Of a DNA stretch of 59,323 nt, positions 13,682 to 47,665 are shown piece after piece. The stretch covers positions 1 through 59,323 of the forward strand of contig CASEJM010000024.1 of the NCBI GenBank assembly GCA_949288265.1, given 5' to 3'. The position numbers were made by a program, and so were the translations under genes. The notes below the pieces were generated by a model that was not told the origin of the DNA, ran no database searches, and worked only from the letters and a program-made list of their open reading frames with translations. This DNA is from an uncultured Pseudomonadota bacterium (GTDB taxonomy: Bacteria > Pseudomonadota > Alphaproteobacteria > Rs-D84). The number at the start of each line of letters is the position of its first letter. Within the stretch, counting starts at the first letter, position 1.

Positions 13682-14221
13682 ATGCAAGAAATTAAAGATA
13701 AAGAAGTTTATAAATCAATTAAATCAGGGCTAAAAGATTTGAAGATTTTAGCTAGATACAACTTGGCAAAACGGTGGATGAAAATTCCTAAAAAAACGCG
13801 TTGGTCCATTGGAAGGGCTTTGGTTTATATGGAGCATGTCGCAAAAAATCCGGAAGCTTATTTTTCTAAGGCGACGACGGAAGATCCTTGGAAAGAGCGG
13901 GTTAAAGAATGGGCTAAAAAAAATAATGCAAATATGGAATTAAGTTTTCATCTTGTTCAAGATCCTAAAGATATCGTTTTTTGTAACACGTCCATTGCTA
14001 TGGATGAAAATTTAAGTTCAATTTATCATAACTTCTGTCAAAAAATTCAAGATTGGGAGTATAGTCGTACAAGAAAAGATGATATCGGTGGTTTCATGGC
14101 AACTAATAACGCTATAGAAATTATTAAAATGTCAAAACTGTTAAATAAAAAAGTACAAGTCATGAAAGATCCTTGTATTTTAAGGCCATTTAAAAGATTT
14201 TATTTACAATTTCAACGATAA
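13682..14221 (+). CDS. Hypothetical protein (no recognisable family)
   Basis: 179-aa ORF with its own promoter, SD and terminator. It has no signal peptide or TM segment. Confidence 0.5.
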   Translation: MQEIKDKEVYKSIKSGLKDLKILARYNLAKRWMKIPKKTRWSIGRALVYMEHVAKNPEAYFSKATTEDPWKERVKEWAKKNNANMELSFHLVQDPKDIVFCNTSIAMDENLSSIYHNFCQKIQDWEYSRTRKDDIGGFMATNNAIEIIKMSKLLNKKVQVMKDPCILRPFKRFYLQFQR

Positions 14222-14249
14222 AAAATCCCCACTTTTATGGGGATTTTTT
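14221..14249. terminator. Bidirectional hairpin terminator
   Basis: AAAAATCCCC-ACTTTTAT-GGGGATTTTTT between convergent genes. Confidence 0.65.
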
Positions 14250-15528
14250 AATGCTTTCCACCAATCTTGGTTCTGCCGCCCATCAATGCTTGTAGCTTTT
14301 TAGGTATGTTTACACTACCATCGGCATTTTGATGATTTTCTAAGAATGGAACTAAAGCACGTGGTACAGCAATCCCTGTATTATTTAAGGTTGCACAGAA
14401 TTTAACCTCGTTTGTACCATTTTCACGGTATCTGGTATTTGTTCTGCGTGCTTGGAATGTGCCAATCGAAGAGCAGCTGCCCAGTTCTTTATAGGCATTT
14501 TCACTTGGTACCCACGCTTCTACATCGTTCATTTTTACTTTATTGAATCCCATGTCGCCAGTTGAATTTGCAATTACGCGATAAGGTAATTCTAAATCTT
14601 CTACTACTTCGCATAAATTATTCAAAAGGTGTTCGTGCATTTCATCTGATTGTTCCGGCGTACAAAATACGTATTGTTCGACTTTGTTAAATTGATGAAA
14701 ACGCGCCAGACCACGGGTATCCCTACCAGCAGCCCCGGCTTCTTTTCTAAAACATGGAGAAAAACCAGCATATTTAATTGGCAATGCACTTTCCGGTAAA
14801 ATTTCACCGCTATGTAAAGAGTTTAAAATTATTTCAGCCGTTCCGGCTAAGCATCTGTCTGTATCAGTTAACATAAATACATCGTTGTTCATTACGGATA
14901 AGTCGGCCCCCATAAAATGTCCCGCATCAAATATGGTTTGCGGTTTCGTAATAGACGGACATTCTATAAAGCGAAATCCTTTACTTATCAATTTTTGTAT
15001 TACATACGTTTCTATTGCCAATTGTAATTCCGCCGCTTCACCAATTAAACAATATGTGCGTGTACCGCAGATTTGTGCAATTTTTTCTGGCATCCACCAA
15101 CCGTTCATGTCCAGCAAATCCCACTGAGCACGTGGCGTAAAGTCAAATTCTTTTGGTTTGCCTATTCGGCGAACTTCTACATTTGCACTGTCATCGGGAC
15201 CGATAGGAGCCTTTACATCGGGAATTTGGGGCACACGGTGTAATAAATCATTTAGCAATGCCTCTTTTTCTGCAAGTTCAGCCATATCGGCGGCAATTTC
15301 ATCACTTATTTGTTTAGATTTTGCAATTAATGGGGATTTGTCTGCGGCATTTGGTATTTCACGAGTTATTTTATTCTTTTCCGCAGTCATGTTTTGAGTT
15401 ATTGTTTTTAGTTCACGTACCCGTACGTCTAATTTTAAAATTTCGTCCACGCGATCTTCAAACCCCTTGACTTTGCAAGCATTTTTTACTTTGTCAGAAT
15501 TCTCACGAATAAATCTTATGTCTAGCAT
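14248..15528 (-). CDS. serS: Seryl-tRNA synthetase
   Basis: MLDIRFIREN start, an N-terminal coiled-coil arm, and class II motifs (FRKEAGAAGRDTRGL.R.HQF.KVE, GTGIAVPRALVP.LEN). Confidence 0.97.
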   Translation of the reverse strand: MLDIRFIRENSDKVKNACKVKGFEDRVDEILKLDVRVRELKTITQNMTAEKNKITREIPNAADKSPLIAKSKQISDEIAADMAELAEKEALLNDLLHRVPQIPDVKAPIGPDDSANVEVRRIGKPKEFDFTPRAQWDLLDMNGWWMPEKIAQICGTRTYCLIGEAAELQLAIETYVIQKLISKGFRFIECPSITKPQTIFDAGHFMGADLSVMNNDVFMLTDTDRCLAGTAEIILNSLHSGEILPESALPIKYAGFSPCFRKEAGAAGRDTRGLARFHQFNKVEQYVFCTPEQSDEMHEHLLNNLCEVVEDLELPYRVIANSTGDMGFNKVKMNDVEAWVPSENAYKELGSCSSIGTFQARRTNTRYRENGTNEVKFCATLNNTGIAVPRALVPFLENHQNADGSVNIPKKLQALMGGRTKIGGKH

Positions 15529-15612
15529 AATGTTATCCTTAATTTTTATTATTTTTTATAATGGTAATATCGCTTTTACAAAAGCGCAACTTAATATAAA
15601 ATATATCATAAA

Positions 15613-15681
15613 TTAAATCAGCACCCCAAAAGGGGATGAAGAAAATAGAAAAAAAAGATATTGTTTTTTCATACTGTTCAT
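15613..15681 (-). promoter_or_regulatory. Candidate serS leader peptide ORF with a Ser-codon run
   Basis: Encodes MNSMKKQYLFFLFSSSPFGVLI*, or a 19-aa form from the in-frame ATG at 15672. TCT TCA TCC CCT is followed by a CCCC-TTTT-GGGG hairpin, and a second hairpin lies at 15571-15586. Confidence 0.5.
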
Positions 15682-15682
15682 A

Positions 15683-15711
15683 ATTTTATTGTTAATACTT
15701 AGAAAAATCAA
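15683..15711 (-). promoter_or_regulatory. Sigma70-like promoter (TTGATT-17-TAAAAT) for the serS leader
   Basis: Hexamers read on the minus strand. The -10 ends 10 nt before the ATG at 15672. Confidence 0.45.
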
Positions 15712-16821: not shown

Positions 16822-17370
16822 ATGAAACGTTTTCTTAGCGTAGTATGTTTTGTTTTATATTCAGCTACTGCTTTTGCAATTGATATGTCGAATCCTTCAT
16901 GTAATACGTGTGCGTGGGTATCTGGTTCTTTATTACAATATATGCAACTTACGGGTTTGTATACAGTTACTGTTGAGCAAGTAAAAAATGCAGGAAAACA
17001 ATATTGTCAGCAAGAAACTCAATTAGTGGGATGTCTAGATTTTGTTGAAAAAGAAACAGAAAGACTTATGGAATGGTTTAGAGATATGAAAACAAATGTT
17101 GAAGGTGATTGTGTTCAATGGGGTTATTGTGGATGTGAGGCAGGTACTGGTTTTATAAATGATGGAGCGGGTGGGGCCTGCTTAACGTGCTCTGACGGTA
17201 AATATAGTCTTAATGATGGTAGCAATACTTGTGCTAGTTGTATATCTCCGGGAACAACTTCTGATACATATGGTAAGACAAGTCTTTTTGATTGTTATAT
17301 TCCTAAAGGATCTTCTTTTTCCGACGAAAATGGGGAGTGGAAATATTCAGATAATTGTTTTTATAAATAA
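16822..17370 (+). CDS. Secreted cysteine-rich protein with TNFR/ephrin-receptor-like Cys repeats
   Basis: Signal peptide MKRFLSVVCFVLYSATAFA. Contains CLTCSDGKYSLNDGSNTCASCISPGTTS (C-x2-C-x2-G-x-Y...C-x2-C). The C-terminal DNCFY tail is shared with 44895-45455. Confidence 0.6.
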   Translation: MKRFLSVVCFVLYSATAFAIDMSNPSCNTCAWVSGSLLQYMQLTGLYTVTVEQVKNAGKQYCQQETQLVGCLDFVEKETERLMEWFRDMKTNVEGDCVQWGYCGCEAGTGFINDGAGGACLTCSDGKYSLNDGSNTCASCISPGTTSDTYGKTSLFDCYIPKGSSFSDENGEWKYSDNCFYK

Positions 17371-34552: not shown

Positions 34553-36475
34553 ATGAATGAGAAGTTTATAAAAGCTGTTAGAACGCCAGAAGAAGCGGCA
34601 AAAAAATTACGTAAATTTATAGAAAAGAAAAAGCCGCTTGATTATGTTCAACAATCCCGTCAAAAAAAAGAAAGGAACGGTGATAAAAATCCTTACTCAA
34701 TGTTTATTGATTCCGCAGAAGTTCTGGGTTTAAGTGCCGCAAAATTTACTGCGTGGTTGGCGGCCGGGGGCAGTCAATTTTTGCTTACGCTGGCACGCTG
34801 GTTGACGATGGATAATGTTTTCTTGCGCAAAATGGAGAAAAAATTTGAATCAATAAATGTTACTAAAAATAAGGACGGGAAAAATAAAAAGCTAGCGGTT
34901 ATTTTAAAAGAATATCCAACTTCATCTGCATATGTTTTGTGGTTGCTTAGTTTGGTTGCCGTTGCTGGTTCCGGATATCTAACGGCAGAGATAGCACCCA
35001 AAGCTATTAGTAACTATAAAGAAAAACGTTTGGCTAAAGAGGCAGAAAAACAAGCCCAGGGTACATATAGAGCTTTTTTAAATAAGGTTCAACCAATAGT
35101 TCCGTTTCTTATTGCTGATTTAATTGCGAAAGAGGGCGTCCATGTAGATAAAAAAACTGGATTGCATACCCCATATTTTGATTCGGAAAATATTGCAACA
35201 ATTGGTTTCGGATCGACAAAATTAAAAAACGGCAGAAGGGTTACAAAGGATACTCGACCAATAACGACAGAAGAAGCATATGAGTTGGCCCGTTGGCATT
35301 TAGAAGAAGAAACTTTTTTCGTTTTATATTGTTATGATGTTGCTTTAGATAATGTAAATATAAATTCTACGGAAGAAGCATTAGCCTTGTCGTCAATGTG
35401 CTATAATGCTTATTCTAAGATCATAGAAGATAAGACAGACATAAATAGTCAAAAAAGATTTGCAGAGTTAAGAAAACTATATGGCGAATATGGTTATTCT
35501 GTTACCGATGATGCGGTACGAAAAGTTTTTGAGGAATATCCGATAATAAAACCAACCAGTTTCGGAAAGCTTTGGGTAGAAGGGGCAGATAAAGAACAAC
35601 TTGCCGATGCCTTAGGTGGATTCTTGAGAAATGGACGAGGTATTTATTGGCGGCGTTGGTTAGAAGCAGGCTTGTTGACTGGGGATATAAAACCAGAAAT
35701 GTTATTGAACTGCCCAACAAATGGAATGTATGAATTCTTTTGCGTAATGGGACAAAAGAAAAGTTCGTTTTTTACAGGTGAAGCTGGTAATAGAAAAGTA
35801 AATAAAAATACATATAAAATATTTGAAGAATGGTTGAAAAATCCTGTTAATGCGAAGGGAGAAAGTTTAAAGCATTGGAAAAAAGTTTCGGATTATATGC
35901 CCGAAGATGTGGTTGATTTCTGTCAGAAAGGCGAATGTAAGTTAAACAATAAGAATTTTAAACAATTTGTGAAAACAAGAGAAGAAATTTCAAACGAAAC
36001 TTATACTATGGGGTATGACGAACAATATAAAAAAGCTATAAATGCGTATAAAGAAAAAGATTATAAAAGCGCGGCCAAGAAGTTTGAACAAATGTTAGAA
36101 GATTATCCTAATAATGCTTTATTGCATAATGATTTGGCTGCTACGTATAATCACTTGGGACGCTATGAAGAAGCAATCATACACACGCGTAAAATATTAC
36201 ACGAAATAGGTGATAAAAGCCAATATGCTGCTGCGCAGTATAATGCAGGTTTCGCATATGAAAAACTTGGTGATTTTGATAGGGCTTTGATGAATTATAA
36301 TTTATCCGTTGAAAATGGAAACCTTAACGTTCGTAAAGATATAGAAAGGGTAAAAAAACTTAGGTCAAAACAGACTATCGCTTTTCGTAATGCCGCAAAA
36401 AATATATCTGATATAGATTTTGTAGAGGAACAAATTTTATATAATAATGTTAAAAAATCTGGGAAGATGGCATGA
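34553..36475 (+). CDS. Membrane-anchored lysozyme-like (GH24-like) protein with C-terminal TPR repeats
   Basis: Two hydrophobic segments in the first 150 aa. KEG...PYFDSENIATIGFGST....G..V......IT.EEA..L resembles the phage-type lysozyme core. TPR-like repeats occupy the last 130 aa. Confidence 0.5.
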   Translation: MNEKFIKAVRTPEEAAKKLRKFIEKKKPLDYVQQSRQKKERNGDKNPYSMFIDSAEVLGLSAAKFTAWLAAGGSQFLLTLARWLTMDNVFLRKMEKKFESINVTKNKDGKNKKLAVILKEYPTSSAYVLWLLSLVAVAGSGYLTAEIAPKAISNYKEKRLAKEAEKQAQGTYRAFLNKVQPIVPFLIADLIAKEGVHVDKKTGLHTPYFDSENIATIGFGSTKLKNGRRVTKDTRPITTEEAYELARWHLEEETFFVLYCYDVALDNVNINSTEEALALSSMCYNAYSKIIEDKTDINSQKRFAELRKLYGEYGYSVTDDAVRKVFEEYPIIKPTSFGKLWVEGADKEQLADALGGFLRNGRGIYWRRWLEAGLLTGDIKPEMLLNCPTNGMYEFFCVMGQKKSSFFTGEAGNRKVNKNTYKIFEEWLKNPVNAKGESLKHWKKVSDYMPEDVVDFCQKGECKLNNKNFKQFVKTREEISNETYTMGYDEQYKKAINAYKEKDYKSAAKKFEQMLEDYPNNALLHNDLAATYNHLGRYEEAIIHTRKILHEIGDKSQYAAAQYNAGFAYEKLGDFDRALMNYNLSVENGNLNVRKDIERVKKLRSKQTIAFRNAAKNISDIDFVEEQILYNNVKKSGKMA

Positions 36476-38484
36476 AAATTTATGTAAATTATAATGATAA
36501 GCGTTGGCGTAAATATAAAATTAATTTTGAAAAAATTGCGCTTGCTGCAGTAATGGGCAATCGTCCTGATTCGGAAGTATCTATAATCTTAACAAACGAT
36601 AAAGAAATTCATAAGATAAATCGTGAGTATCGAAATATAGATAAACCTACAAACGTTTTATCATTTGAACTAGGTGATGATATTTTATTAGGGGATATTT
36701 ATATATCTTTGGATACTGTTTTAAAAGAAGCAAAGGAAGAAAATATATCTTTGTCAGATCATACGGCGCATATGGTTGTACATGGTATGTTGCATCTGCA
36801 GGGGTATGATCATATAAAAGAAAAAGATGCAGAAGTAATGGAAAATAAAGAAACAGAAATTTTAAAAGGTATGAATATAAAAAATCCGTATGCGTCTGAT
36901 TATAACGCATGCAAGAATTCTTCATGTTGTCCCGGAAATAAATTTTTTTCATGGTTACATTCTTTAAGAATACGTGAAAATTCTATTTGGCAATATTTAA
37001 TAATGTTTTTATTAGGGGCAATTGCTTCACTTGGTTTTGCACCTTTTCATATATGGTGGGCTACATTAGTTGCGATTGCGGCGGCATATAAAATATCTAT
37101 ATGTGGGACTAATAGATCAAGTCTGGTAAAAACTTTTTTACAAATTTTGCCGTTCAGTGCCGCTTATGCTATATCAATGTTTTGGTGGGTTGTAAACTCT
37201 ATATACGTTGTACCTGAATTGGCAGCGCAATTTGCTGTGTGGACTTTGCCGGCTCTTATAGGAATAGGTATTGTGGGCGGAATAATTTTTGCAATTCCTT
37301 TTGTTGTGATAAGGCGTATGTGCACGTTTCCTGCATGTAGAGCGTTTTTATTTGCTGCAATTTGGGTGTTGATTTTGTGGTTAAGGGAATGGCTGTTTAC
37401 GGGTTTCCCCTGGAATCCACTTTCTAACATTTTAATGCCTTTCCCTGTTTTGGCAAATTCTATGTCTTTATGGGGCGCTTTGGGAAGCTCTTTTGTGATA
37501 ATAGGATTGCTTGCTTCGATTGCAGAGTTAATTGGAAATCATAAAGATAAAACTGTATGGGGTACTTTTTGTATTTTTATAGTTCTAAGTATTTTAGGCG
37601 TCGGCTATGGTTATAAAAACATTCATTTGGCAAAAAATGTTGATGTAGATAGCCCAATAATTAGAATCGTTCAACCGGCTCGTAGCGCAGTGCAAAAAGC
37701 TACTCATTCCCGAGAAGAAGCATTAAAAAATGCAACAGAAAATGTAAAGTTTTTAATAAACTTGGCTTCTGCATCTGGGAACATTGATTTGGTTGTTTTC
37801 CCAGAAACTTCTTATCCTTTTATTGTTCTTGATGGGGATGATATGCCGATTTCCGTCGCATTAAATAATAATATCATTATTGGTACTAATTTTTATTCTT
37901 CTGGAAATTTATATAATTCAATGATTTTCGCGACACCAGATGGTGAAATTCAAAAAATATACAGTAAATCTCATTTGGTTCCCTTCGGAGAATATAGACC
38001 TTTCGGTGACATAATTCCGACACCTGGGCAATTATCAAAAGGTAATGGACCAGAACTTATAAGTATTAATGTACATAATAAGAATTTTACTTTCGTACCA
38101 GCAATTTGTTATGAAATAATCTTTTCAGACTCTTTGGTTCCATCGGGAAAGCAACCTGATGCAGTTATAAATATTACGAATGATACTTGGTTCGGTAATA
38201 CCCCCGGAACGTATCAGCATCTTGATATGGTTCGCAGGTATGCAATAGAATCAGGTTTGCCTATAGTCAGAGCAAATTATTCTGGAATCAGTGCTTTCAT
38301 AACATCTTATGGAACTATTATATCCGAAATACCTGTCGGAAAATCTGGTTATATGGACGGCGTTATAGGTGGCGCTCATTTTACCCTATATCGGGAAATT
38401 GGACGGGATGGTTGGATTGTAATAATATTATTATTTTCATGTATATGCACCATATCTTTGTATGCACTAAAAAAACAAAGATAG
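36472..38484 (+). CDS. Fusion protein: YbeY endoribonuclease domain + apolipoprotein N-acyltransferase (Lnt)
   Basis: Residues 1-140 are YbeY (NVLSFE, HGMLHLQGYDH, end ..NPY). The rest is Lnt (8-TM region, nitrilase domain with FPETS, SKSHLVPFGEY, PAICYEIIF). It is a single uninterrupted 670-codon ORF. Confidence 0.85.
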   Translation: MKIYVNYNDKRWRKYKINFEKIALAAVMGNRPDSEVSIILTNDKEIHKINREYRNIDKPTNVLSFELGDDILLGDIYISLDTVLKEAKEENISLSDHTAHMVVHGMLHLQGYDHIKEKDAEVMENKETEILKGMNIKNPYASDYNACKNSSCCPGNKFFSWLHSLRIRENSIWQYLIMFLLGAIASLGFAPFHIWWATLVAIAAAYKISICGTNRSSLVKTFLQILPFSAAYAISMFWWVVNSIYVVPELAAQFAVWTLPALIGIGIVGGIIFAIPFVVIRRMCTFPACRAFLFAAIWVLILWLREWLFTGFPWNPLSNILMPFPVLANSMSLWGALGSSFVIIGLLASIAELIGNHKDKTVWGTFCIFIVLSILGVGYGYKNIHLAKNVDVDSPIIRIVQPARSAVQKATHSREEALKNATENVKFLINLASASGNIDLVVFPETSYPFIVLDGDDMPISVALNNNIIIGTNFYSSGNLYNSMIFATPDGEIQKIYSKSHLVPFGEYRPFGDIIPTPGQLSKGNGPELISINVHNKNFTFVPAICYEIIFSDSLVPSGKQPDAVINITNDTWFGNTPGTYQHLDMVRRYAIESGLPIVRANYSGISAFITSYGTIISEIPVGKSGYMDGVIGGAHFTLYREIGRDGWIVIILLFSCICTISLYALKKQR

Positions 38485-41282: not shown

Positions 41283-41911
41283 TTCTTTAGAAGCAAATAC
41301 TTTGGAACCGTAGTTCCGGCTTTGTTTTTTTCTTGATAGCGTGTATGTATTGTTTTTATATCGGGGGTACAAATAAAAAGTTTTGTTAGTTTTGCTTGGT
41401 TTATAATCCAATCAAAATATTCCCAATGGTCAGTACCAATTATTATTTCACCGTTTCGTGTAAGATGTTTTGATAAAAGCATTAAGAAATCAGCATTTAA
41501 AAGCCGTCTTTTTTCATGTCTTGCTTTCGGCCAAGGGTCTGGGTGCAGAACCCATATTTGTTCGAATTTCGAATCGGTATCACGTAAAAAATCGCGAACA
41601 TCATCCGGAAAAATCCGTATGTTTTTATATTCAGAACGAATCGAATTCGATTCGTCTGTTATTGCGGATAATAGAGAAGCAACGCCATTCATAAATGGTT
41701 CTGCGCCGATTATAATTTTATCCGGGTTTTCCCGGCTAATTTCACGTAAATGTTCACCTGAACCGAAACCAATTTCTAAAATTAAACCGGTGTTTGTTGG
41801 TAAGCCTACAGGCTGTATCGCAGGCAACACTGTATCCAGCAACGTATTCTGACGTGCAGATAATTTTTTGCCGTGCCGGCGTCCAAAAGTTCTTATCTCT
41901 TGTTTTTCCAT
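41279..41911 (-). CDS. trmB: tRNA (guanine46-N7)-methyltransferase
   Basis: EIGFGSGEHL SAM motif and HPDPWPKARHEKRRL signature. Confidence 0.88.
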   Translation of the reverse strand: MEKQEIRTFGRRHGKKLSARQNTLLDTVLPAIQPVGLPTNTGLILEIGFGSGEHLREISRENPDKIIIGAEPFMNGVASLLSAITDESNSIRSEYKNIRIFPDDVRDFLRDTDSKFEQIWVLHPDPWPKARHEKRRLLNADFLMLLSKHLTRNGEIIIGTDHWEYFDWIINQAKLTKLFICTPDIKTIHTRYQEKNKAGTTVPKYLLLKN

Positions 41912-41956
41912 ATATTTAGTATAAAATTCAACTTATATGAATACAAGGTAAATGTA

Positions 41957-42514
41957 ATGGAATACCCTAAAATTATTAAATCAGACGGCTTTACATTGGA
42001 AAAAATTGCGCCTACATTTGAAAATGCGCGCAAGGTTTTTGAAGTCGTTGATGCAGAACGCGATTCTTTGCGCCAATTCTTATCGTGGATTGACGAAACG
42101 CGTTGCCCAGAAGATTTGTTCATGCATATTTATAAGGTTTCTAAAACAGATAACGGATCTTATTACATAAAGTACGACGGTAAAATAGTCGGTAATGTTG
42201 GAGTGGACATTAGTTCTAAAAAAAATAAAATCGCAGAGATTGCATATTGGTTATCTGGCAAGTATACCGGTCGTGGTATCATGACGCGTTGTGTTAAAAA
42301 GTTAGAAGAGTTCGCTTTTAAAAATATGGATGTGAACAGAATAGAAATTATTATGGAAACAGAAAATATAAAATCTGAGGGCGTTGCAAAGCGGGCAGGT
42401 TATGTATGTGAGGGTATTCGTCGTCAAAGTTATTTGATTCATGATAAATTAAAAGATGTTTTTACATATTCGAAATTAAAGTCAGAATGGGAAAAGGAAA
42501 ATAAAAATGCGTAA
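41957..42514 (+). CDS. GNAT-family N-acetyltransferase (RimJ/RimL-like)
   Basis: IAYWLSGKYTGRGIMT..V..L..FAF......RIEI.....N..S..VA.RAGY..EG. I prefer the ATG at 41957 with an AAGG SD over the ORF-track start at 41873. Confidence 0.8.
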   Translation: MEYPKIIKSDGFTLEKIAPTFENARKVFEVVDAERDSLRQFLSWIDETRCPEDLFMHIYKVSKTDNGSYYIKYDGKIVGNVGVDISSKKNKIAEIAYWLSGKYTGRGIMTRCVKKLEEFAFKNMDVNRIEIIMETENIKSEGVAKRAGYVCEGIRRQSYLIHDKLKDVFTYSKLKSEWEKENKNA

Positions 42515-44087
42515 AGGTTTGTCTGCAGATTTAATTACTCGTGTATTAGGGGGGGGGCCAAAATATACTTTGGCAGAGTTAGAAGAAAAGTACCCACCAC
42601 GTAATTTACCAGAAGGGGCCTTTGTAACCCGCTTTTCACCAAGCCCTACGGGATATATGCATATCGGCGGTTTGTACATGTCTTTGATTGATTATAAATT
42701 GGCAAAGCAAACTGACGGTGTATTTATGCTGCGTATAGAAGATACAGATACCAAGCGTGAAGTAAAAGATGCGGCAAAGATTATTGTAGATTCTATGAAA
42801 CGATTCGGTTTTGAATATAATAATGATGAAGTATATGGACCTTACTATCAGTCGCAACGCAAGGATGTTTATCGCAGTGTCGCAGCAGATTTGTTGGCAC
42901 GTGGATTGGCGTATCCTTGCTTTTTGACGGCAGAAGATATGGAAAAAATTCGTGAAAATCAAAAGAATGCAGGATTCGCAACGGGTATTTACGGCGAATT
43001 TGCACGTGATAGAGATATTTCAGAAGAAGATATAATTCGTCATTTGGATGCAGGTGAGGTTCCGTCAATTCGCTTATATTCTACTGGTAATCCTGATAAC
43101 AGAATTTTCTGTAAAGATGCAGTGCGTGGTTCTATCGGTTTCCCAGAAAATAACGAAGATATTGTTTTGATTAAGTCAAATGACGGTTTGCCAACGTATC
43201 ATTTTGCGCACCTGTGTGATGACCACTTTATGCGTACAACACACGTTGTTCGTGGTGAAGAATGGCTGCCTTCTTTTCCTTTGCATACTCAAATGTTTCG
43301 CATGATGGGGTGGACGCCACCATTATATATCCATACTGCGACAATTGATAAGATTGATCCAGAAACTGGTAAACAAAGAAAGTTGTCCAAGCGCCATGAC
43401 CCAGAGGCAAACGTTGCGTTTTTCTTAGCAGACGGTTGGCCGACAGAGGCGATAATAGATTATCTGGGCAATATTGCTGCATCTGGTTATGAAGAGGCGA
43501 AGGTTAAAGGGCAGGTTAAATCTTTTTGGGATTATGAATTGCGCCCAAAGAAAATACCTATGTCTGGTGTCTTGTTTGATAACAGAAAATTAGAATGGTG
43601 GGCAAAAGAATATATTGCTACTTTGCCGGTTGATGAATTGGTAAAGCGAGTTCGCGATTGGGCGGATGAATATGACCCACAATGGGCGGCACGAATCGGT
43701 GACAATCCAGAATATTTAAAAAATATTTTGGCGATTGAACGTGATAACCCGAAGCGCATCCGTAAAGATTTTATTACTTGGAAACAGACTTTGCAGGAAG
43801 TGTCTTATTTCTGGGATGATTTGTTCTTGTCGAACAAAGAATATGAATTTAACAAAGATTTATTGTCTGCATTTTTATCAACATTTGATATTTGTGATGA
43901 TAAAGACACTTGGTGGGCAAAGATTGTTGCCATTGCCGCTGACAAAGGTGTAAAAAACGGCGATGTTGCGATGAATTTGCGTGTGGTGTTGACCGGTCGC
44001 ACAAATACACCCGATTTGTATTCTATAATGCAGGTTATGGGTACGGATAAGGTTGTTAATCGTATAAAGGATGTAATTAATGGTTAA
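42507..44087 (+). CDS. gltX: Glutamyl-tRNA synthetase
   Basis: RFSPSPTGYMHIGG (HIGH), RIEDTD and KLSKR (KMSKS) motifs. It overlaps the upstream gene by 8 nt, and a 35-aa segment precedes the HIGH region. Confidence 0.88.
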   Translation: MRKGLSADLITRVLGGGPKYTLAELEEKYPPRNLPEGAFVTRFSPSPTGYMHIGGLYMSLIDYKLAKQTDGVFMLRIEDTDTKREVKDAAKIIVDSMKRFGFEYNNDEVYGPYYQSQRKDVYRSVAADLLARGLAYPCFLTAEDMEKIRENQKNAGFATGIYGEFARDRDISEEDIIRHLDAGEVPSIRLYSTGNPDNRIFCKDAVRGSIGFPENNEDIVLIKSNDGLPTYHFAHLCDDHFMRTTHVVRGEEWLPSFPLHTQMFRMMGWTPPLYIHTATIDKIDPETGKQRKLSKRHDPEANVAFFLADGWPTEAIIDYLGNIAASGYEEAKVKGQVKSFWDYELRPKKIPMSGVLFDNRKLEWWAKEYIATLPVDELVKRVRDWADEYDPQWAARIGDNPEYLKNILAIERDNPKRIRKDFITWKQTLQEVSYFWDDLFLSNKEYEFNKDLLSAFLSTFDICDDKDTWWAKIVAIAADKGVKNGDVAMNLRVVLTGRTNTPDLYSIMQVMGTDKVVNRIKDVING

Positions 44088-44894: not shown

Positions 44895-45455
44895 ATGTAT
44901 ATTTTAAATGCGATAAAGAAATTTAAATTTCTGGGTTTGCTATGTGCCTGTGTAATAGGAATTGTTGTTATGCCAAATAAGGCCGCTTTGGGGGCATGGA
45001 CATATTGTGATGATTGCTATAAGTGTGTGCTTTGGGATTCTACATTTGGATGTCTAAAGTGTGAATATGATGAAGCTTATTGTGGAAGTGAAGGGGCGTG
45101 TACAGGAAATCAAGTATGGGATCCTGTTTTAGAAAAATGTGTGTGTGATCCTTATCCTATGTGTATGGAAGGCCAGATTGTAAATGAAGAAACTTGTGAG
45201 TGTGAGGGTGAGCCAGGTGGCGAAGTGGCTTTTTGCGAAGACGGTTTTTATTCTGCAAATGGCGAATGTTTACCTTGCCCGGTTGTAGATAACTTTACCG
45301 TTATAAATAGTGTTTATCCATGTGGTGGACCACATATTGCGGAAGATATGCTAGATTCTATATTAGGGTGCTTTTATGGTGGCGGCGGAAGTTGTACATA
45401 TGATGACAATTCCGGTACATTTATATTTACAGATAACTGTTTTTATTCAGAATAG
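44895..45455 (+). CDS. Secreted cysteine-rich protein, paralog of 16822-17370
   Basis: Signal/TM segment, more than 25 Cys, CEDGFYSANGECLPCP (C-x2-G-x-Y...C-x2-C), and a C-terminal ..DDNSGTFIFTDNCFYSE tail. Confidence 0.6.
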   Translation: MYILNAIKKFKFLGLLCACVIGIVVMPNKAALGAWTYCDDCYKCVLWDSTFGCLKCEYDEAYCGSEGACTGNQVWDPVLEKCVCDPYPMCMEGQIVNEETCECEGEPGGEVAFCEDGFYSANGECLPCPVVDNFTVINSVYPCGGPHIAEDMLDSILGCFYGGGGSCTYDDNSGTFIFTDNCFYSE

Positions 45456-45473: not shown

Positions 45474-45502
45474 TTGACATTATTGGTTTTAAGTACTAAC
45501 AT
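45474..45502 (+). promoter_or_regulatory. Sigma70-like promoter (TTGACA-17-TAACAT) for the thrS leader
   Basis: Consensus -35. The -10 ends 9 nt before the leader ATG at 45512. Confidence 0.45.
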
Positions 45503-45511
45503 TGATTTATC

Positions 45512-45568
45512 ATGAATAGGTTTATTGTATTTTTTGCTACAACTACAACAACCCCCACGGGGGTGTAG
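45512..45568 (+). promoter_or_regulatory. Candidate thrS leader peptide ORF with a Thr-codon run
   Basis: Encodes MNRFIVFFATTTTTPTGV*. ACA ACT ACA ACA ACC CCC ACG is followed by a C5/G5 hairpin at 45551-45564, and a second hairpin lies at 45577-45592. Confidence 0.55.
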
Positions 45569-45649
45569 ATTCTATTTGCGGTTTTAACCGCACAGTGTAA
45601 TAATCAATAACAATTTAATTTTATTTATATAAATAAAAAGGTTTTTATT

Positions 45650-47383
45650 ATGGCATATCCTATTGAAACGATTCGTCATTCTTTGGCGCATGTTATGGCG
45701 GCAGCAGTACAAAAACTGTATCCAGATGTAAAATTTGCTGGGGGACCGGCGATTGAAAACGGGTTCTATTACGACTTTGATACGGAACATAGATTTTCTG
45801 AGGAAGATTTTGAGAAAATAGAACAAGAAATGCGTTCACTGATCAAATCAAATGGTCGATTTGAACAACGTAACGTATCTTTGGAAGAAGCAAAACAAAT
45901 TTTTGCCGATCAACCGTATAAGATGGAATGGTTGAACGAATATGATGCCGCGGGGGAACAGTTGTCTATATATACTTTCCGCGACTTCATAGACTTATGT
46001 CGCGGACCGCACGTTGAAAGCTCAAAAGACTTGCCACGCGATTCGTTTAAGGTTCGCAATGTTGCGGGGGCGTATTGGAAAGGCGATGCAAAAAATAAAA
46101 TGTTGCAACGTATTTATGTAGACGCGTTTGCTTCTAAAGAAGAATTAGAACAATTCTTAAAAATGCAAGAAGAAGCTGCAGGACGTGATAATCGTAAGTT
46201 AGGTAAAGATATGGATTTATTCCATTTTGAACCAGATTATGCACCAGGGGCGGTATTCTGGCATGATAAGGGATATAAAATTTACCGTAAATTAATTGAA
46301 TATATCCGTCATCGTCAGGAAAAAGCAGGATATTTAGAAATTTCTACTCCGTCCGTTATGGATCGTTCTTTATGGGAACGTAGCGGTCACTGGGCTAAAT
46401 ATGGTGAACATAATTATTCTGGTAAAACTCAGGATGGTAAAACTTTCTGCGTAAAACCAATGTCTTGCCCAGGCGGAATGTTAGTATTTGGTCAGGGAAT
46501 TAAGTCTTATAAAGATTTGCCTATGTATTTGGCCGAGTTTGGTAAAGTTAATCGTTATGAAACTGCTGGTAGTCTGTCTGGGTTGATGCGCGTTCGTGAA
46601 TTTACTCAAGATGATGCTCATATTTTCTGCACGGAAGAGCAATTAGAATCCGAAGTCGTAAAAGTGTTGCGTTTTATTAAAGATATTTATGGTAAGTTTG
46701 GCTTTGATAAGATTTCTATGAAACTAGCAACCCGTAAAGAATCTGAATTTCGTATAGGGTCTGATGAAATATGGGACAAAGCAGAAGGGGCTTTAAAACA
46801 TGCGTTGGATGCAAATGGAATTGAATACGAAATTGCAGAAGGTGATGCAGCATTCTATGGACCGAAAATTGATAATTACTTGAAAGATGCGCTGGGGCGT
46901 ACATGGCAGTGTGGCACAGTACAATTAGACATGAATTTACCGGAAAGATTTGATTTGTCTTATATCGGTGAAGACGGTGAAAAGCACCGTCCAATTATGT
47001 TGCATCGTGCTATGTTAGGATCTATTGAACGTTTTATGGCGATATTGTTAGAATCAACCGGTGGAAACTTGCCTTTGTGGTTGTCACCAGAACCGGTTGT
47101 TGTTACCCCTATTTCTGAAAAGTTCCGTGATTATGCAGAAGCTATAGTTGATGCTTTGCATGATGCTGGTATATATGCACGGGCTGATTTACGTGACGAG
47201 AAGGTTAATTATAAAATCCGTGAATTATCTTTGGCAAAAACACCAATTATCGCGGTGGTTGGTGAAAAAGAAATGGCGGACAAAACCGTAACTTTACGTC
47301 GTCTTGGGGTAGAAAAGCAGGAAGTAGTAAAACTGGATGACTTTATATCTCAGATGAAAGACGCGGTAAAGATGCCGGCATAA
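45650..47383 (+). CDS. thrS: Threonyl-tRNA synthetase (no N-terminal TGS domain)
   Basis: Starts at the editing domain (IRHSLAHVMAAAVQ..YP......GP.IENGFYYDFD). It has the class II core and an anticodon-binding domain. Length is 577 aa. Confidence 0.95.
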   Translation: MAYPIETIRHSLAHVMAAAVQKLYPDVKFAGGPAIENGFYYDFDTEHRFSEEDFEKIEQEMRSLIKSNGRFEQRNVSLEEAKQIFADQPYKMEWLNEYDAAGEQLSIYTFRDFIDLCRGPHVESSKDLPRDSFKVRNVAGAYWKGDAKNKMLQRIYVDAFASKEELEQFLKMQEEAAGRDNRKLGKDMDLFHFEPDYAPGAVFWHDKGYKIYRKLIEYIRHRQEKAGYLEISTPSVMDRSLWERSGHWAKYGEHNYSGKTQDGKTFCVKPMSCPGGMLVFGQGIKSYKDLPMYLAEFGKVNRYETAGSLSGLMRVREFTQDDAHIFCTEEQLESEVVKVLRFIKDIYGKFGFDKISMKLATRKESEFRIGSDEIWDKAEGALKHALDANGIEYEIAEGDAAFYGPKIDNYLKDALGRTWQCGTVQLDMNLPERFDLSYIGEDGEKHRPIMLHRAMLGSIERFMAILLESTGGNLPLWLSPEPVVVTPISEKFRDYAEAIVDALHDAGIYARADLRDEKVNYKIRELSLAKTPIIAVVGEKEMADKTVTLRRLGVEKQEVVKLDDFISQMKDAVKMPA

Positions 47384-47393
47384 ATAAAAAAAT

Positions 47394-47416
47394 ATGGCGC
47401 GTTTTAAACGCGCCAT
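47394..47416 (+). terminator. Hairpin terminator after thrS
   Basis: ATGGCGCG-TTTTAAA-CGCGCCAT. The T tract is weak. Confidence 0.5.
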
Positions 47417-47446
47417 TATAATATAATTAAAACAAAGGAAGCTAAA

Positions 47447-47590
47447 ATGAAGAAAGCGGTTTTATTAGCGGCAATATTTATAATGCCGATGATGGTATCT
47501 GCGTGTGCGTCTAAATGCGAAACGGAACCTATTGTAGAAGAAAATCATAAATTAATTGTCCCACCAAATTTCGGACAGATGCCAAAGTAA
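47447..47590 (+). CDS. Small lipoprotein (47 aa, DUF3035-like C-terminal VPPxF motif), not in the ORF track
   Basis: Encodes MKKAVLLAAIFIMPMMVSAC|ASKCETEPIVEENHKLIVPPNFGQMPK*, with lipobox VSAC and an AAGGAAG SD. Confidence 0.6.
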   Translation: MKKAVLLAAIFIMPMMVSACASKCETEPIVEENHKLIVPPNFGQMPK

Positions 47591-47596
47591 TTATAT

Positions 47597-47605
47597 TGAT
47601 ATAAT
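47597..47605 (+). promoter_or_regulatory. Extended -10 promoter (TGaTATAAT), distal copy
   Basis: TTATATTGATATAAT. Confidence 0.35.
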
Positions 47606-47627
47606 CTTTGGAAAATACGGTTTTTTA

Positions 47628-47636
47628 TGATATAAT
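47628..47636 (+). promoter_or_regulatory. Extended -10 promoter (TGaTATAAT), proximal copy
   Basis: TTTTTTATGATATAAT lies 29 nt upstream of the ATG at 47666, with a GGGGGA SD. Confidence 0.45.
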
Positions 47637-47665
47637 TAATTATAAAGAACTATGGGGGAATCCTG

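What the first reader, a model, noticed from the sequence alone, without database searches (positions are those of the whole stretch)
15529..15711. Ser-codon-run leader ORF upstream of seryl-tRNA synthetase with the same architecture as the thrS leader
On the minus strand, the 277-nt serS/trxB spacer is the longest intergenic region in the window. It carries ATG(15681), or the in-frame ATG(15672), through TAA(15613), encoding M(NSM)KKQYLFFLFSSSPFGVLI. Three consecutive Ser codons (TCT TCA TCC) are followed by Pro and a CCCC-TTTT-GGGG hairpin (plus-strand core 15624-15635). A second hairpin, CGCTTTT-GT-AAAAGCG (15571-15586), follows, and then about 40 nt of AT-rich spacer before the serS SD and ATG (15528). 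A TTGATT-17-TAAAAT promoter (15711-15683) puts the TSS a few nt before the second ATG, again leaderless. The peptide grammar matches the thrS leader: FF, 1-2 residues, a cognate-residue run, P, x, G, V (FFATTTTTPTGV versus FFLFSSSPFGV). In both, the C-run/G-run hairpin spans the Pro to Gly-Val codons. Two different aaRS genes sharing one device argues against chance. It suggests a family of leader-peptide sensors for aminoacyl-tRNA synthetase genes that I do not recognise as a described regulon.
Basis: partly seen in the sequence, partly recalled or inferred. Interest (0 to 1): 0.72.

Follow-up and report, generated by a model that had tools for sequence, protein, structure and literature searches.

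The report
Serine- and threonine-sensing leader ORFs before aaRS genes
A tiny, conserved upstream reading frame with a run of serine codons fused to a small GC hairpin sits in front of the seryl-tRNA synthetase gene of this reduced-genome gut bacterium, with a threonine twin before the threonyl-tRNA synthetase gene; it most likely lets a stalling ribosome report low charged tRNA, which is a compact new version of the known leader-peptide attenuation principle.

Summary
The window comes from a Candidatus Enterousia-like alphaproteobacterium (order Rs-D84, genomes under 1 Mb, no amino-acid biosynthesis).

- **serS leader.** A near-leaderless 19-codon ORF (15672-15613, minus strand) ends ...FSSSPFGVLI. 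Its last Ser codon runs into a CCCC-UUUU-GGGG hairpin.
- **Conservation.** The serS device is present in 36 of 81 Enterousia species. A Thr-codon twin precedes thrS in all 42 Enterousia-like loci that have upstream sequence.
- **Evidence for translation.** Sensor codons vary synonymously and in whole-codon steps.
- **Evidence for an RNA constraint.** The rare codons TCC/ACC and GGG that build the hairpin are invariant.
- **No classical attenuator.** Only this one 4-5 bp hairpin is conserved next to the sensor codons. No antiterminator alternative exists.
- **Reinterpretation of the second hairpin.** It lies inside a probable second promoter (TTGCGN-17-TAnnAT), and its arms covary.
- **Best explanation.** A ribosome stalled on hungry Ser or Thr codons masks a weak terminator or pause hairpin. 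Transcription from the upstream promoter then reads into the synthetase gene, on top of basal P2 expression. The sensor role is well supported. The termination step is inferred.
- **Novelty.** Leader peptides before aaRS genes are already known (pheM-pheST, Streptomyces, Deinococcus), so this is a new variant of a known kind.

The parts
15683..15711 (-). Promoter P1 of the serS leader: -35 TTGATT (15711-15706), 17-nt spacer, -10 TAAAAT (15688-15683)
   Evidence: Consensus scan. The same -35 TTGATT/TTGCAT and -10 TATAAT lie 9-10 nt before the leader ATG in 34 species.
15613..15672 (-). serS leader ORF, 19 codons plus stop: MKKQYLFFLFSSSPFGVLI*. An in-frame ATG at 15681 probably lies upstream of the transcription start. 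There is no SD.
   Evidence: The ORF is conserved at 17-22 codons, with consensus M-x3-F-x-FF-S-x-x-S-S-P-[FL]-G-[VE].
15634..15642 (-). Sensor codons TCT TCA TCC (Ser-Ser-Ser). The last two (TCA TCC) are invariant across species.
   Evidence: position 0 is TCC in 33/33 leaders, although TCC is only 6.6% of Ser codons in the window. Position -1 is TCA in 31/33. Ser codons further upstream vary (TCT/TCA/TCG/AGT).
15624..15635 (-). Hairpin 1: CCCC-UUUU-GGGG, overlapping the last Ser, Pro, x and Gly codons. A U-rich tract follows after the stop codon.
   Evidence: It folds in 34/34 nascent leader RNAs, mean dG -6.9 kcal/mol. GGG is used in 33/33 leaders although it is 19% of Gly codons. Loop sequences vary.
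15561..15589 (-). Probable second promoter P2 with hairpin 2 inside it: -35 TTGCGC (15589-15584), 17-nt spacer, -10 TACCAT (15566-15561). The inverted repeat CGCUUUU-GU-AAAAGCG is at 15586-15571.
   Evidence: The -35-like to -10-like spacing of 17 is conserved. Only 2 of 191 promoter-like sites in the window carry such a hairpin.
14248..15540 (-). SD AAGGA (15540-15536) and serS (ATG 15528 to stop 14248), the regulated gene
   Evidence: SerRS relatives at 78-93% identity in 80 Enterousia species.
45474..45502 (+). Promoter P1 of the thrS leader: TTGACA, 17-nt spacer, TAACAT, ending 9 nt before the leader ATG
45512..45568 (+). thrS leader ORF MNRFIVFFATTTTTPTGV*. Thr codons are at 45539-45553. 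Hairpin 1 is A-CCCC (45551-45555), a 4-nt loop, and GGGG-U (45560-45564).
   Evidence: Conserved in 42/42 Enterousia-like thrS loci with 3-7 Thr codons. ACC is used 40/40 and GGG 40/40. The A-U and four C-G pairs are essentially invariant in 29 sequences (one C-U mismatch at one pair).
45576..45604 (+). thrS P2-like promoter with hairpin 2: -35 TTGCGG (45576-45581), GCGGUU-UU-AACCGC (45578-45591), extended -10 TGtAATAAT (45596-45604)
   Evidence: 36/41 relatives have TTGCNN-16/17-TATAAT here; hairpin present in 39/40, against 10 expected from shuffled spacers.
45650..47383 (+). thrS (577 aa, no N-terminal TGS extension), the regulated gene of the twin device

Best explanation
The element is a ribosome-mediated sensor of charged tRNA-Ser. 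A paralogous copy at thrS senses tRNA-Thr.

Proposed sequence of events:
1. Promoter P1 makes a transcript that starts 0-3 nt before an AUG. The 17-19-codon leader ORF is therefore translated without a Shine-Dalgarno sequence.
2. The last two to seven codons before a Pro codon are cognate (Ser or Thr) codons. The final one (UCC or ACC) supplies the first two C's of a C4-loop-G4 hairpin. That hairpin ends 2-9 nt before the stop codon and is followed by a U-rich tract.
3. When seryl-tRNA is plentiful, the leader is either not yet occupied or is cleared quickly at the nearby UAA. The hairpin then forms behind RNA polymerase. Transcription from P1 pauses and terminates in the U-rich tract, just upstream of a second promoter, P2. 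P2 alone then supplies basal serS mRNA.
4. When seryl-tRNA is scarce, the ribosome dwells on the Ser codons. Its footprint reaches about 12-13 nt beyond the A-site codon and covers the C-run, so the hairpin cannot form. P1 transcription reads through into serS and raises expression.

Status of each step:
- Shown by sequence comparison: the ORF, the cognate-codon selection, the RNA-level constraint on the hairpin, the lack of any alternative antiterminator pairing, and the promoter geometries.
- Inferred: that hairpin 1 terminates or pauses transcription, the direction of regulation, and that P2 is active.
For: 1. Specificity. The only two short ORFs in the window that end at a C4/G4 hairpin precede serS (Ser run) and thrS (Thr run).
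2. Conservation. The serS leader is in 34 complete, 1 truncated and 1 degenerate copy among 81 species. The thrS leader is in all 42 Enterousia-like loci. It is absent from 33 loci with more distant ThrRS relatives at 60-63% identity (upstream regions of 15 of them read).
3. Translation signature. Thr codons upstream of the last two vary freely among ACA/ACT/ACC/ACG. The Ser run uses both UCN and AGU. Run length changes in whole codons. The ORF stays at 17-23 codons.
4. RNA signature. Rare codons are invariant: TCC 33/33 (6.6% genomic usage), ACC 40/40 (11%), GGG 73/73 (19%). Loop sequences vary. The hairpin folds in 74/75 nascent RNAs with mean dG of -6.9 kcal/mol.
5. Near-leaderless start. 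The distance from the -10 box to the ATG is mostly 7-10 nt, with no SD.
6. Terminators in this genome are similarly small. They have 4-6 GC pairs and include C4/G4 stems at 14227-14246 and L161:13958.
7. Geometry. The invariant sensor codons sit 0-6 nt from the 5' arm, so a stalled ribosome must cover it. This follows from the sequence and established ribosome footprint sizes.
8. Physiology. The lineage lacks amino-acid biosynthesis (PMC12306168). Synthetase genes are therefore the natural targets for amino-acid-specific control.
Against: - No transcript ends, reporter data or ribosome profiling exist for this organism.
- Hairpin 1 is weak (4-5 bp). Its U-rich tract starts 5-7 nt after the stem and is interrupted, unlike the canonical terminators of the same genome, where the T-run abuts the stem.
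- There is no antiterminator, so discrimination between a passing and a stalled ribosome depends on timing. A ribosome starting at a leaderless 5' end must reach the sensor codons before polymerase leaves the U-tract. That requires a pause which is not demonstrated.
- A ribosome that is tightly coupled to polymerase would also suppress the hairpin when amino acid is plentiful.
- The covarying hairpin 2 has no role in this model.
- In serS loci that lack a recognisable P2, an essential gene would depend wholly on read-through.
Confidence: 0.5

Rival explanations
1. Post-transcriptional control. P1 transcripts always reach the synthetase gene. A ribosome stalled near the 5' end either frees the downstream ribosome-binding site from pairing with the U-rich start of the leader, as in mycobacterial poly-Cys leaderless sORFs, or protects the 5' end and stabilises the mRNA, as with erm leaders.
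For: - The leaderless sensory sORFs of mycobacteria work by unmasking an RBS (10.1101/834739).
- The leader's first 8 codons are U-rich and the 5' UTR is A-rich, so long-range A-U pairing is possible.
- In serS leaders the SD window is somewhat less paired when the leader is masked: 61% against 45% of positions.
- This model needs no polymerase-ribosome timing.
Against: - There is no consistent SD sequestration in thrS leaders: 41% free against 44% stalled.
- Whole-leader folds are not more stable than shuffles (z -1.0 and -1.4).
- The model does not explain the invariant C4/G4 hairpin, or the stop codon fixed right after it.
- The SD is 60-100 nt away, with a promoter in between.
Confidence: 0.15
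2. Rho-dependent attenuation. After the ribosome leaves the leader, the C-rich, G-poor sensor region (UCUUCAUCCCC or ACAACUACAACAACCCC) serves as a Rho loading site. Rho then stops polymerase before or early in the synthetase gene. A ribosome stalled on the sensor codons hides this site, as in tnaC.
For: - The sensor runs are C-rich and G-free, and the spacer downstream is G-poor.
- This model removes the timing problem of intrinsic termination.
- There is no canonical U-run directly at hairpin 1.
Against: - The most conserved feature, the G-run pairing with the C-run, would hide the C-run from Rho and is unexplained by this model.
- The downstream spacer is A-rich rather than C-rich.
- It was not possible to check whether this reduced genome encodes rho; none is in the window.
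Confidence: 0.12
3. Inverse or growth-coupled logic. Hairpin 1 is a hairpin-stabilised pause rather than a terminator, and a translating ribosome releases it. A ribosome stalled early in the sensor run does not reach the hairpin. Polymerase then stays parked on the -35 region of P2 and lowers expression, tying synthetase output to translation capacity.
For: - The 10-14 nt distance from the stem to the U-rich tract fits class I pause geometry better than terminator geometry (pause geometry from own knowledge).
- The pause site would overlap the P2 -35 element in thrS, where the G-run to -35 distance is 11-16 nt.
Against: - All known aaRS controls raise expression when charging falls.
- The invariant sensor codons are the two that abut the hairpin. 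Some serS leaders have only these two, so a stall there must melt the hairpin.
- In serS, P2 lies 30-37 nt further away, so occlusion would not apply.
Confidence: 0.08
4. Not a sensor. Either the ORF encodes a small hydrophobic peptide with its own function, or the C4-N4-G4 palindrome is a DNA operator for a regulator shared by the two genes, and the codon runs are incidental.
For: - The N-terminal half is hydrophobic and conserved (F-x-F-F or F-I-F) in both families.
- The palindrome is identical in both loci.
Against: - Ser codons pair only with serS and Thr codons only with thrS, across 36 and 42 loci.
- The codons vary synonymously and the run length is variable.
- The palindrome keeps a fixed reading frame relative to the ORF, and its loop length varies from 2 to 4 nt. 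That is unusual for an operator.
Confidence: 0.05

Closest known systems
Classical leader-peptide transcription attenuators of proteobacteria (trpL, hisL, thrL, pheL, and pheM upstream of pheST)
   Same: - A short upstream ORF with tandem codons for the cognate amino acid.
- Ribosome position is read out through RNA structure next to a U-rich tract.
- pheM-pheST shows the principle applied to a synthetase operon (own knowledge; principle summarised in PMC8079986 and PMC4007540).
   Different: - No SD on the leader ORF; it is near-leaderless.
- There is one hairpin fused directly to the last sensor codon, instead of overlapping 1:2, 2:3 and 3:4 alternatives. No antiterminator pairing was found.
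- The U-tract is displaced from the stem.
- A second promoter lies between the leader and the gene.
- No Rfam leader family matches.
Leaderless cognate-codon leader peptides upstream of aaRS genes in Streptomyces lividans (thrL-thrS, alaL-alaS, leuL2-leuS, trpL2-trpS; PMC8079986) and Deinococcus deserti (cysS and others; PMC4007540)
   Same: - A leaderless short ORF of 10-22 codons with cognate residues directly upstream of the matching synthetase gene.
- One hairpin, and often no clear U-run.
- S. lividans ThrL (MKRVRPFLETTPGFVPAR) even contains T-T-P-G.
   Different: - Different phyla, and no detectable sequence homology was tested.
- Those peptides carry only 1-6 cognate residues and were defined in single genomes from RNA-seq.
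- Here the evidence is comparative (75 loci), and the hairpin is built from the sensor, Pro and Gly codons in a fixed frame.
- No serS/Ser example turned up in the held literature, and the held text of those two papers names none.
Mycobacterial polycysteine leaderless sORFs (the 'Cys ribulon'; 10.1101/834739)
   Same: - Leaderless sensory sORFs with a run of one codon type.
- Several loci share one grammar and respond to one amino acid through ribosome pausing.
   Different: - Those act on translation, by blocking a duplex that sequesters the downstream RBS.
- Here no consistent RBS sequestration is predicted.
- The targets are synthetase genes, with a promoter in between.
pyrBI/pyrE-type attenuators (own knowledge)
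   Same: - The leader ORF runs through a single terminator-like hairpin with no antiterminator.
- The outcome depends on whether a ribosome covers the hairpin when polymerase is at the U-tract.
   Different: - The signal there is UTP-dependent polymerase pausing.
- Here the signal would be cognate-codon-dependent ribosome dwell time.
T-box riboswitches (the usual serS/thrS control in Firmicutes)
   Same: - Same regulated genes and the same physiological signal (uncharged versus charged tRNA).
   Different: - No specifier loop or T-box sequence.
- cmscan against Rfam 15 gives no hit, even at E up to 10.
- Sensing here would be through translation, not direct tRNA binding.

Membership tests
Classical ribosome-mediated transcription attenuator (trp/his/thr/pheST type) | Short leader ORF with tandem codons for the amino acid that matches the downstream gene | tested here: met
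   The Ser run lies before serS in 36 species and the Thr run before thrS in 42 loci. The cognate identity is kept through synonymous changes.
Classical ribosome-mediated transcription attenuator (trp/his/thr/pheST type) | Mutually exclusive hairpins: a pause/protector (1:2), an antiterminator (2:3) and a terminator (3:4) | tested here: not met
   RNAalifold on 29 thrS leaders finds only hairpin 1. With the C-run masked, the G-run has no conserved partner. The arms of hairpin 2 are not complementary to the arms of hairpin 1.
Classical ribosome-mediated transcription attenuator (trp/his/thr/pheST type) | GC-rich terminator stem followed directly by a U-run | tested here: inconclusive
   The stem is GC-only but only 4-5 bp. 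The U-rich tract begins 5-7 nt after it and is interrupted. Genomic terminators have the T-run abutting the stem.
Classical ribosome-mediated transcription attenuator (trp/his/thr/pheST type) | Amino-acid-dependent termination shown experimentally | not testable with these tools
   The lineage is uncultured and no transcript data are available here.
Leaderless sensory short ORFs (Actinobacteria/Deinococcus type) | Transcription starts at, or within a few nt of, the sORF start codon, with no SD | tested here: inconclusive
   The distance from the -10 box to the ATG is mostly 7-10 nt and no SD is present. This predicts a 0-3 nt 5' UTR, but no TSS mapping exists.
Leaderless sensory short ORFs (Actinobacteria/Deinococcus type) | Cognate codon enrichment matching the downstream amino-acid-related gene | tested here: met
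Leaderless sensory short ORFs (mycobacterial Cys type) | A stalled ribosome blocks a duplex that sequesters the downstream RBS | tested here: not met
   Constrained folding shows no consistent change in SD pairing between the free, stalled and stop states, especially for thrS.
T-box riboswitch | Match to the T-box covariance model (specifier loop, T-box sequence, antiterminator) | tested here: not met
   There is no T-box hit, or any leader-family hit, at gathering threshold or at E up to 10.
Rfam amino-acid leader families (Thr_leader, His_leader, Leu_leader, Trp_leader, Phe_leader) | Covariance-model match | tested here: not met
   Searches give only chance-level hits to unrelated families.

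The most novel reading that the evidence does not exclude
The two leaders are members of a modular, re-codable minimal attenuator. In it, the sensor codons, a Pro codon and a Gly codon themselves build the single regulatory hairpin (NCC-CCN-NNN-GGG-G).

- No antiterminator is needed. A stalled ribosome is the antiterminator.
- Specificity can be switched simply by exchanging the codon run. The serS and thrS leaders share ATT GTA TTT TTT ... GGG GTG TAG, which points to this kind of exchange.
- The design would be open to all amino acids with NCC codons (Ser, Thr, Ala, Pro).
- It could be the main amino-acid-specific regulatory system of a sub-1-Mb symbiont genome that has lost amino-acid biosynthesis.
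- The covarying hairpin built from the -35 hexamer of P2 would couple read-through from P1 to the activity of the downstream promoter in a way not described before.
Probability: 0.3. Interest if true: 0.7.

Novelty: new variant of a known kind. Interest (0 to 1): 0.5.

Why it matters
- **Regulation in a reduced genome.** If confirmed, it shows that an obligate, reduced-genome gut alphaproteobacterium (Enterousia, Rs-D84) keeps amino-acid-specific feedback on at least two synthetase genes. It would do so with about 70 nt of RNA and no protein or tRNA-binding riboswitch.
- **A first for serS.** It would be the first leader-peptide control of serS that I could find.
- **A clean natural case of re-coding.** One attenuator scaffold appears to have been re-coded for a second amino acid.
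- **A minimal test system.** The single-hairpin, no-antiterminator design asks how little RNA is needed for ribosome-mediated attenuation. The parts are small enough to test in cell-free systems or to reuse as synthetic amino-acid sensors.
- **Annotation.** It flags a class of 17-20-codon ORFs that gene callers miss in metagenome-assembled genomes.

Tried and rejected
1. **Rfam.** The whole window was scanned at gathering threshold, and both leaders at E up to 10. This gave no T-box and no amino-acid leader family, only chance hits.
2. **Classical three-hairpin attenuator.** RNAalifold and constrained folding found no antiterminator. Hairpin 2 is not complementary to hairpin 1.
3. **SD sequestration or unmasking.** The results were inconsistent. 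Whole-leader folds are not better than shuffles.
4. **Hairpin 2 as a terminator.** No U-run follows it. It is instead followed at fixed spacing by a TATAAT-like hexamer.
5. **Hairpin 2 as a general promoter feature.** Only 2 of 191 promoter-like sites in the window have one.
6. **Hairpin 2 as a protein operator.** This is unlikely, because the arms covary and the loop length varies from 3 to 9 nt.
7. **Further family members.**
   - A regex for short ORFs ending at C4/G4 hairpins, and for -10-N7-12-ATG sORFs with residue runs, was run over the window and 160 loci (about 1.3 Mb). It found only the serS and thrS leaders plus noise inside coding regions.
   - The flanks contain no other aaRS gene.
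   - Extending the window ends by 10 kb each gave no aaRS and only a canonical terminator.
   - gltX in the window has no leader.
8. **More distant ThrRS relatives** (60-63% identity, with a TGS domain): no leader.
9. **D. deserti supplementary table of leader peptides.** It is not held in the library.
10. **rho.** I looked for it in the window to weigh the Rho model; none is present.
Full report
**What is in the sequence**

- -35 TTGATT (15711-15706), a 17-nt spacer, and -10 TAAAAT (15688-15683).
- ATG at 15681 and an in-frame ATG at 15672, with TAA at 15615-15613.
- Ser codons TCT TCA TCC at 15642-15634.
- The hairpin CCCC-TTTT-GGGG at 15635-15624.
- The inverted repeat CGCTTTT-GT-AAAAGCG at 15586-15571.
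- SD AAGGA at 15540-15536.

The thrS twin is on the plus strand at 45512-45568 and encodes MNRFIVFFATTTTTPTGV. Its hairpin is A-CCCC/GGGG-U at 45551-45564.

A search of the whole window for short ORFs that end at a C4-loop-G4 hairpin returns only these two. The third synthetase gene in the window, gltX at 42507-44087, overlaps its upstream ORF and has no leader.

One detail of the finding is not right. By ORF calls, the spacer after thrS (47384-47665) is 282 nt, so the serS/trxB spacer is not the longest in the window.

**Which organism**

The best SerRS matches, at 78-93% identity, are metagenome-assembled genomes named Candidatus Enterousia or uncultured Alphaproteobacteria from animal and human guts. 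Enterousia belongs to order Rs-D84. Its genomes are below about 1 Mb and lack pathways for amino-acid biosynthesis (PMC12306168). The window has 37% G+C.

**Conservation of the serS leader**

- Of 81 serS loci (80 species plus the window), 34 carry a complete leader ORF.
- One contig (L003) is cut inside the ORF.
- One (L063) has a degenerate copy (TCC ACG TTG GGG).
- In the other species, serS either follows trxB co-directionally or has a plain promoter.

The ORF is 17-22 codons long, with consensus M-x3-F-x-F-F-S-x-x-S-S-P-[FL]-G-[VE], 0-2 further residues and then the stop. A TATAAT-type -10 box ends 9-10 nt before the ATG in most species, and there is no SD. This predicts a 5' UTR of 0-3 nt. 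It also identifies the second ATG (15672) as the working start in the window.

**Conservation of the thrS leader**

All 42 Enterousia-like thrS loci that have upstream sequence (69-91% ThrRS identity) carry the twin:
- M-x3-[FL]-F-[IV]-F, then 3-7 Thr codons, then P-x-G-V, an optional R, and the stop.
- L113 is a variant with a displaced stop.
- Thirty-three loci with more distant ThrRS relatives (60-63% identity, with an N-terminal TGS extension of about 67 residues) lie directly behind another gene and have no leader.

**Two separate selective signatures**

*Codon identity.*
- Thr codons at positions -5 to -2 vary among ACA, ACT, ACC and ACG.
- Ser runs use TCT, TCA, TCG and AGT.
- Run length changes in steps of whole codons.

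This pattern is what selection for translated cognate codons produces, not selection for a nucleotide motif.

*RNA structure.*
- The codon that starts the C-run is TCC in 33/33 serS leaders and ACC in 40/40 thrS leaders. TCC and ACC make up only 6.6% and 11% of Ser and Thr codons in the window's genes.
- The Gly codon is GGG in 73/73, against 19% genomic usage.
- The loop between the runs varies: TTTT, GTTT, GTTG, ATTT, TGCG, CGCG and others.
- The hairpin forms in 74 of 75 nascent leader RNAs, with mean dG of -6.9 kcal/mol.
- Because the stem never varies, there is no covariation. The support comes from the synonymous-site invariance.

**The two leaders look paralogous**

The serS leader of L062 (...ATT GTA TTT TTT AGT CGC AGT TCA TCC CCG TTT GGG GTG TAG) and the window's thrS leader (...ATT GTA TTT TTT GCT ACA ACT ACA ACA ACC CCC ACG GGG GTG TAG) share both flanks. 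They differ mainly in the sensor codons.

**What the 'second hairpin' is**

It begins with TTGCGN and is followed, 16-17 nt after that hexamer, by a -10-like hexamer.
- In thrS loci the hexamer is TATAAT in 32, TAAAAT in 3 and TACAAT in 1 of 41. The rest, including the window, have TGnAATAAT.
- In at least 18/34 serS loci the hexamer is TAACAT, TATTAT or TACCAT.
- The hairpin loop ranges from 3 to 9 nt, but the hexamer spacing stays at 16-17 because filler sequence compensates.

That pattern is the signature of a sigma-70 promoter, which I call P2. The 3' arm of the hairpin tracks the last four bases of the -35 hexamer:
- GCGC/GCGC
- GCAC/GUGC
- GCGA/UCGC
- GCGU/ACGC
- GCGGU/ACCGC
- CGCUUUU/AAAAGCG

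This is true covariation. The hairpin is present in 39/40 thrS loci, against 10 expected from shuffled spacers. Only 2 of 191 promoter-like sites in the window have such a hairpin: the serS P2 and one chance site inside a gene. Hairpin 2 is therefore real and specific to these loci. It is not followed by a U-run, and it is not complementary to hairpin 1. Its role is unexplained.

**What the device is not**

- Rfam gives no T-box and no amino-acid leader family.
- There is no set of alternative hairpins. RNAalifold finds only hairpin 1. When the C-run is masked, the G-run has no conserved partner.
- Predicted pairing of the serS and thrS SD does not change consistently between the free, stalled and terminating-ribosome states.
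- Whole-leader folds are no more stable than shuffles.

**Most likely mechanism**

Established parts:
- A near-leaderless ORF.
- Cognate sensor codons.
- A small GC hairpin whose 5' arm starts inside the last sensor codon.
- A stop codon 2-9 nt after the stem, usually UAA followed by U.
- A U-rich tract, and then P2.

Terminators elsewhere in this genome are also tiny. They have 4-6 GC pairs flanked by A and T runs, including C4/G4 stems at 14227-14246 and at L161:13958.

A ribosome with one of the invariant sensor codons in its A site covers about 12-13 nt downstream (established footprint size). That span contains the C-run. The simplest reading is therefore as follows:
- Hairpin 1 plus the U-rich tract stops or pauses transcription from P1.
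- A ribosome held on hungry Ser or Thr codons prevents the hairpin from forming.
- Read-through then adds to basal expression from P2.

I put about 0.85-0.9 on the statement that this is a cognate-codon, ribosome-mediated sensor acting on the synthetase gene. I put about 0.5 on the terminator-masking step.

Weak points of this model:
- The displaced, interrupted U-tract.
- The absence of a demonstrated pause that would let a ribosome reach the sensor codons in time.
- The fact that a tightly coupled ribosome would also suppress the hairpin.
- The idle hairpin 2.

The rival explanations are post-transcriptional unmasking or stabilisation, a Rho loading site hidden by the stalled ribosome, a pause with inverse logic, and a non-sensor peptide or operator. 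Each is listed with its own tests.

**Comparison with what is known**

- The principle is classical attenuation. pheM-pheST is the textbook synthetase example (own knowledge).
- Leaderless cognate-codon leader peptides upstream of synthetase genes have been proposed from RNA-seq in Streptomyces lividans (thrL, alaL, leuL2, trpL2). ThrL there reads MKRVRPFLETTPGFVPAR and so also contains T-T-P-G.
- The same has been proposed in Deinococcus deserti (cysS and others).
- Mycobacterial poly-Cys leaderless sORFs are shown experimentally, but they act on translation.
- I found no leader peptide described for serS, and nothing on regulation in Enterousia.

The Enterousia device differs in several ways:
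- Its single hairpin is built from the sensor, Pro and Gly codons in a fixed frame.
- It lacks an antiterminator.
- An internal promoter lies between leader and gene.
- That promoter's -35 element is one arm of a second, covarying hairpin.
- One scaffold appears to have been re-coded for two amino acids.

I file it as a new variant of a known kind.

**Limits**

- I could not reach other synthetase genes of these genomes. The flanks fetched contain none, and extending the window ends gave none. Whether the family goes beyond Ser and Thr is open.
- All functional statements rest on sequence comparison and established knowledge of ribosome footprints and termination. No expression data exist for this organism.

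Noticed in passing
window 16822-17370 (+) and 44895-45455 (+): Two apparently paralogous Cys-rich ORFs have N-terminal hydrophobic signal-like segments and end in ...DNCFYK / ...DNCFYSE. One lies next to trxB and the other directly upstream of the thrS leader. The first has no Pfam match.
   Followed up: partly
window 36472-38484 (+): A single 670-aa open frame combines a YbeY endoribonuclease domain with apolipoprotein N-acyltransferase domains (LNT_N, CN_hydrolase). This is either a gene fusion or two genes without an intervening stop.
   Followed up: no
window 45650-47383; L128-L160: Enterousia ThrRS (577 aa) lacks the roughly 67-residue N-terminal TGS extension found in the 60-63%-identical relatives. 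Those relatives also lack the leader.
   Followed up: partly
window 1673, 3657, 14227, 16742, 29669, 31800, 48805, 59222; L161:13958: Terminators in this genome are very short GC stems (4-6 bp) flanked by an A-run and a T-run, so they can work in both directions. One of them (14227-14246, CCCC/GGGG) serves the 3' ends of serS and the convergent ORF 13682-14221.
   Followed up: partly
L112, L115, L118 (between P2 and thrS): Extra palindromic, repeat-like inserts of 60-130 nt sit in the thrS 5' UTR of three species. They look MITE-like.
   Followed up: no
L001-L080 upstream of serS: The serS leader is patchy within the genus (36 of 81 species). The trxB-serS arrangement switches between divergent and co-directional, which implies repeated loss or gain. 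L063 carries a copy with a broken C-run.
   Followed up: partly
window 15645-15656 and 45524-45535; all leader loci: Both leader families keep U-rich Phe/Ile/Val codons (GTA TTT TTT or TTT ATT TTT) immediately before the sensor codons. The reason is unknown. It could be a pause signal, a nascent-peptide effect, or pairing with the A-rich 5' UTR.
   Followed up: no
window 42507-44087 (+): gltX (GluRS) overlaps the preceding ORF (41873-42514) and has no leader or hairpin device. Not all synthetase genes in this genome use the device.
   Followed up: yes
L161 17940-21320 (-): A gatC-gatA-gatB operon (Glu-tRNA-Gln amidotransferase) lies about 7 kb beyond the right end of the window. This fits a genome that charges tRNA-Gln indirectly.
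   Followed up: no
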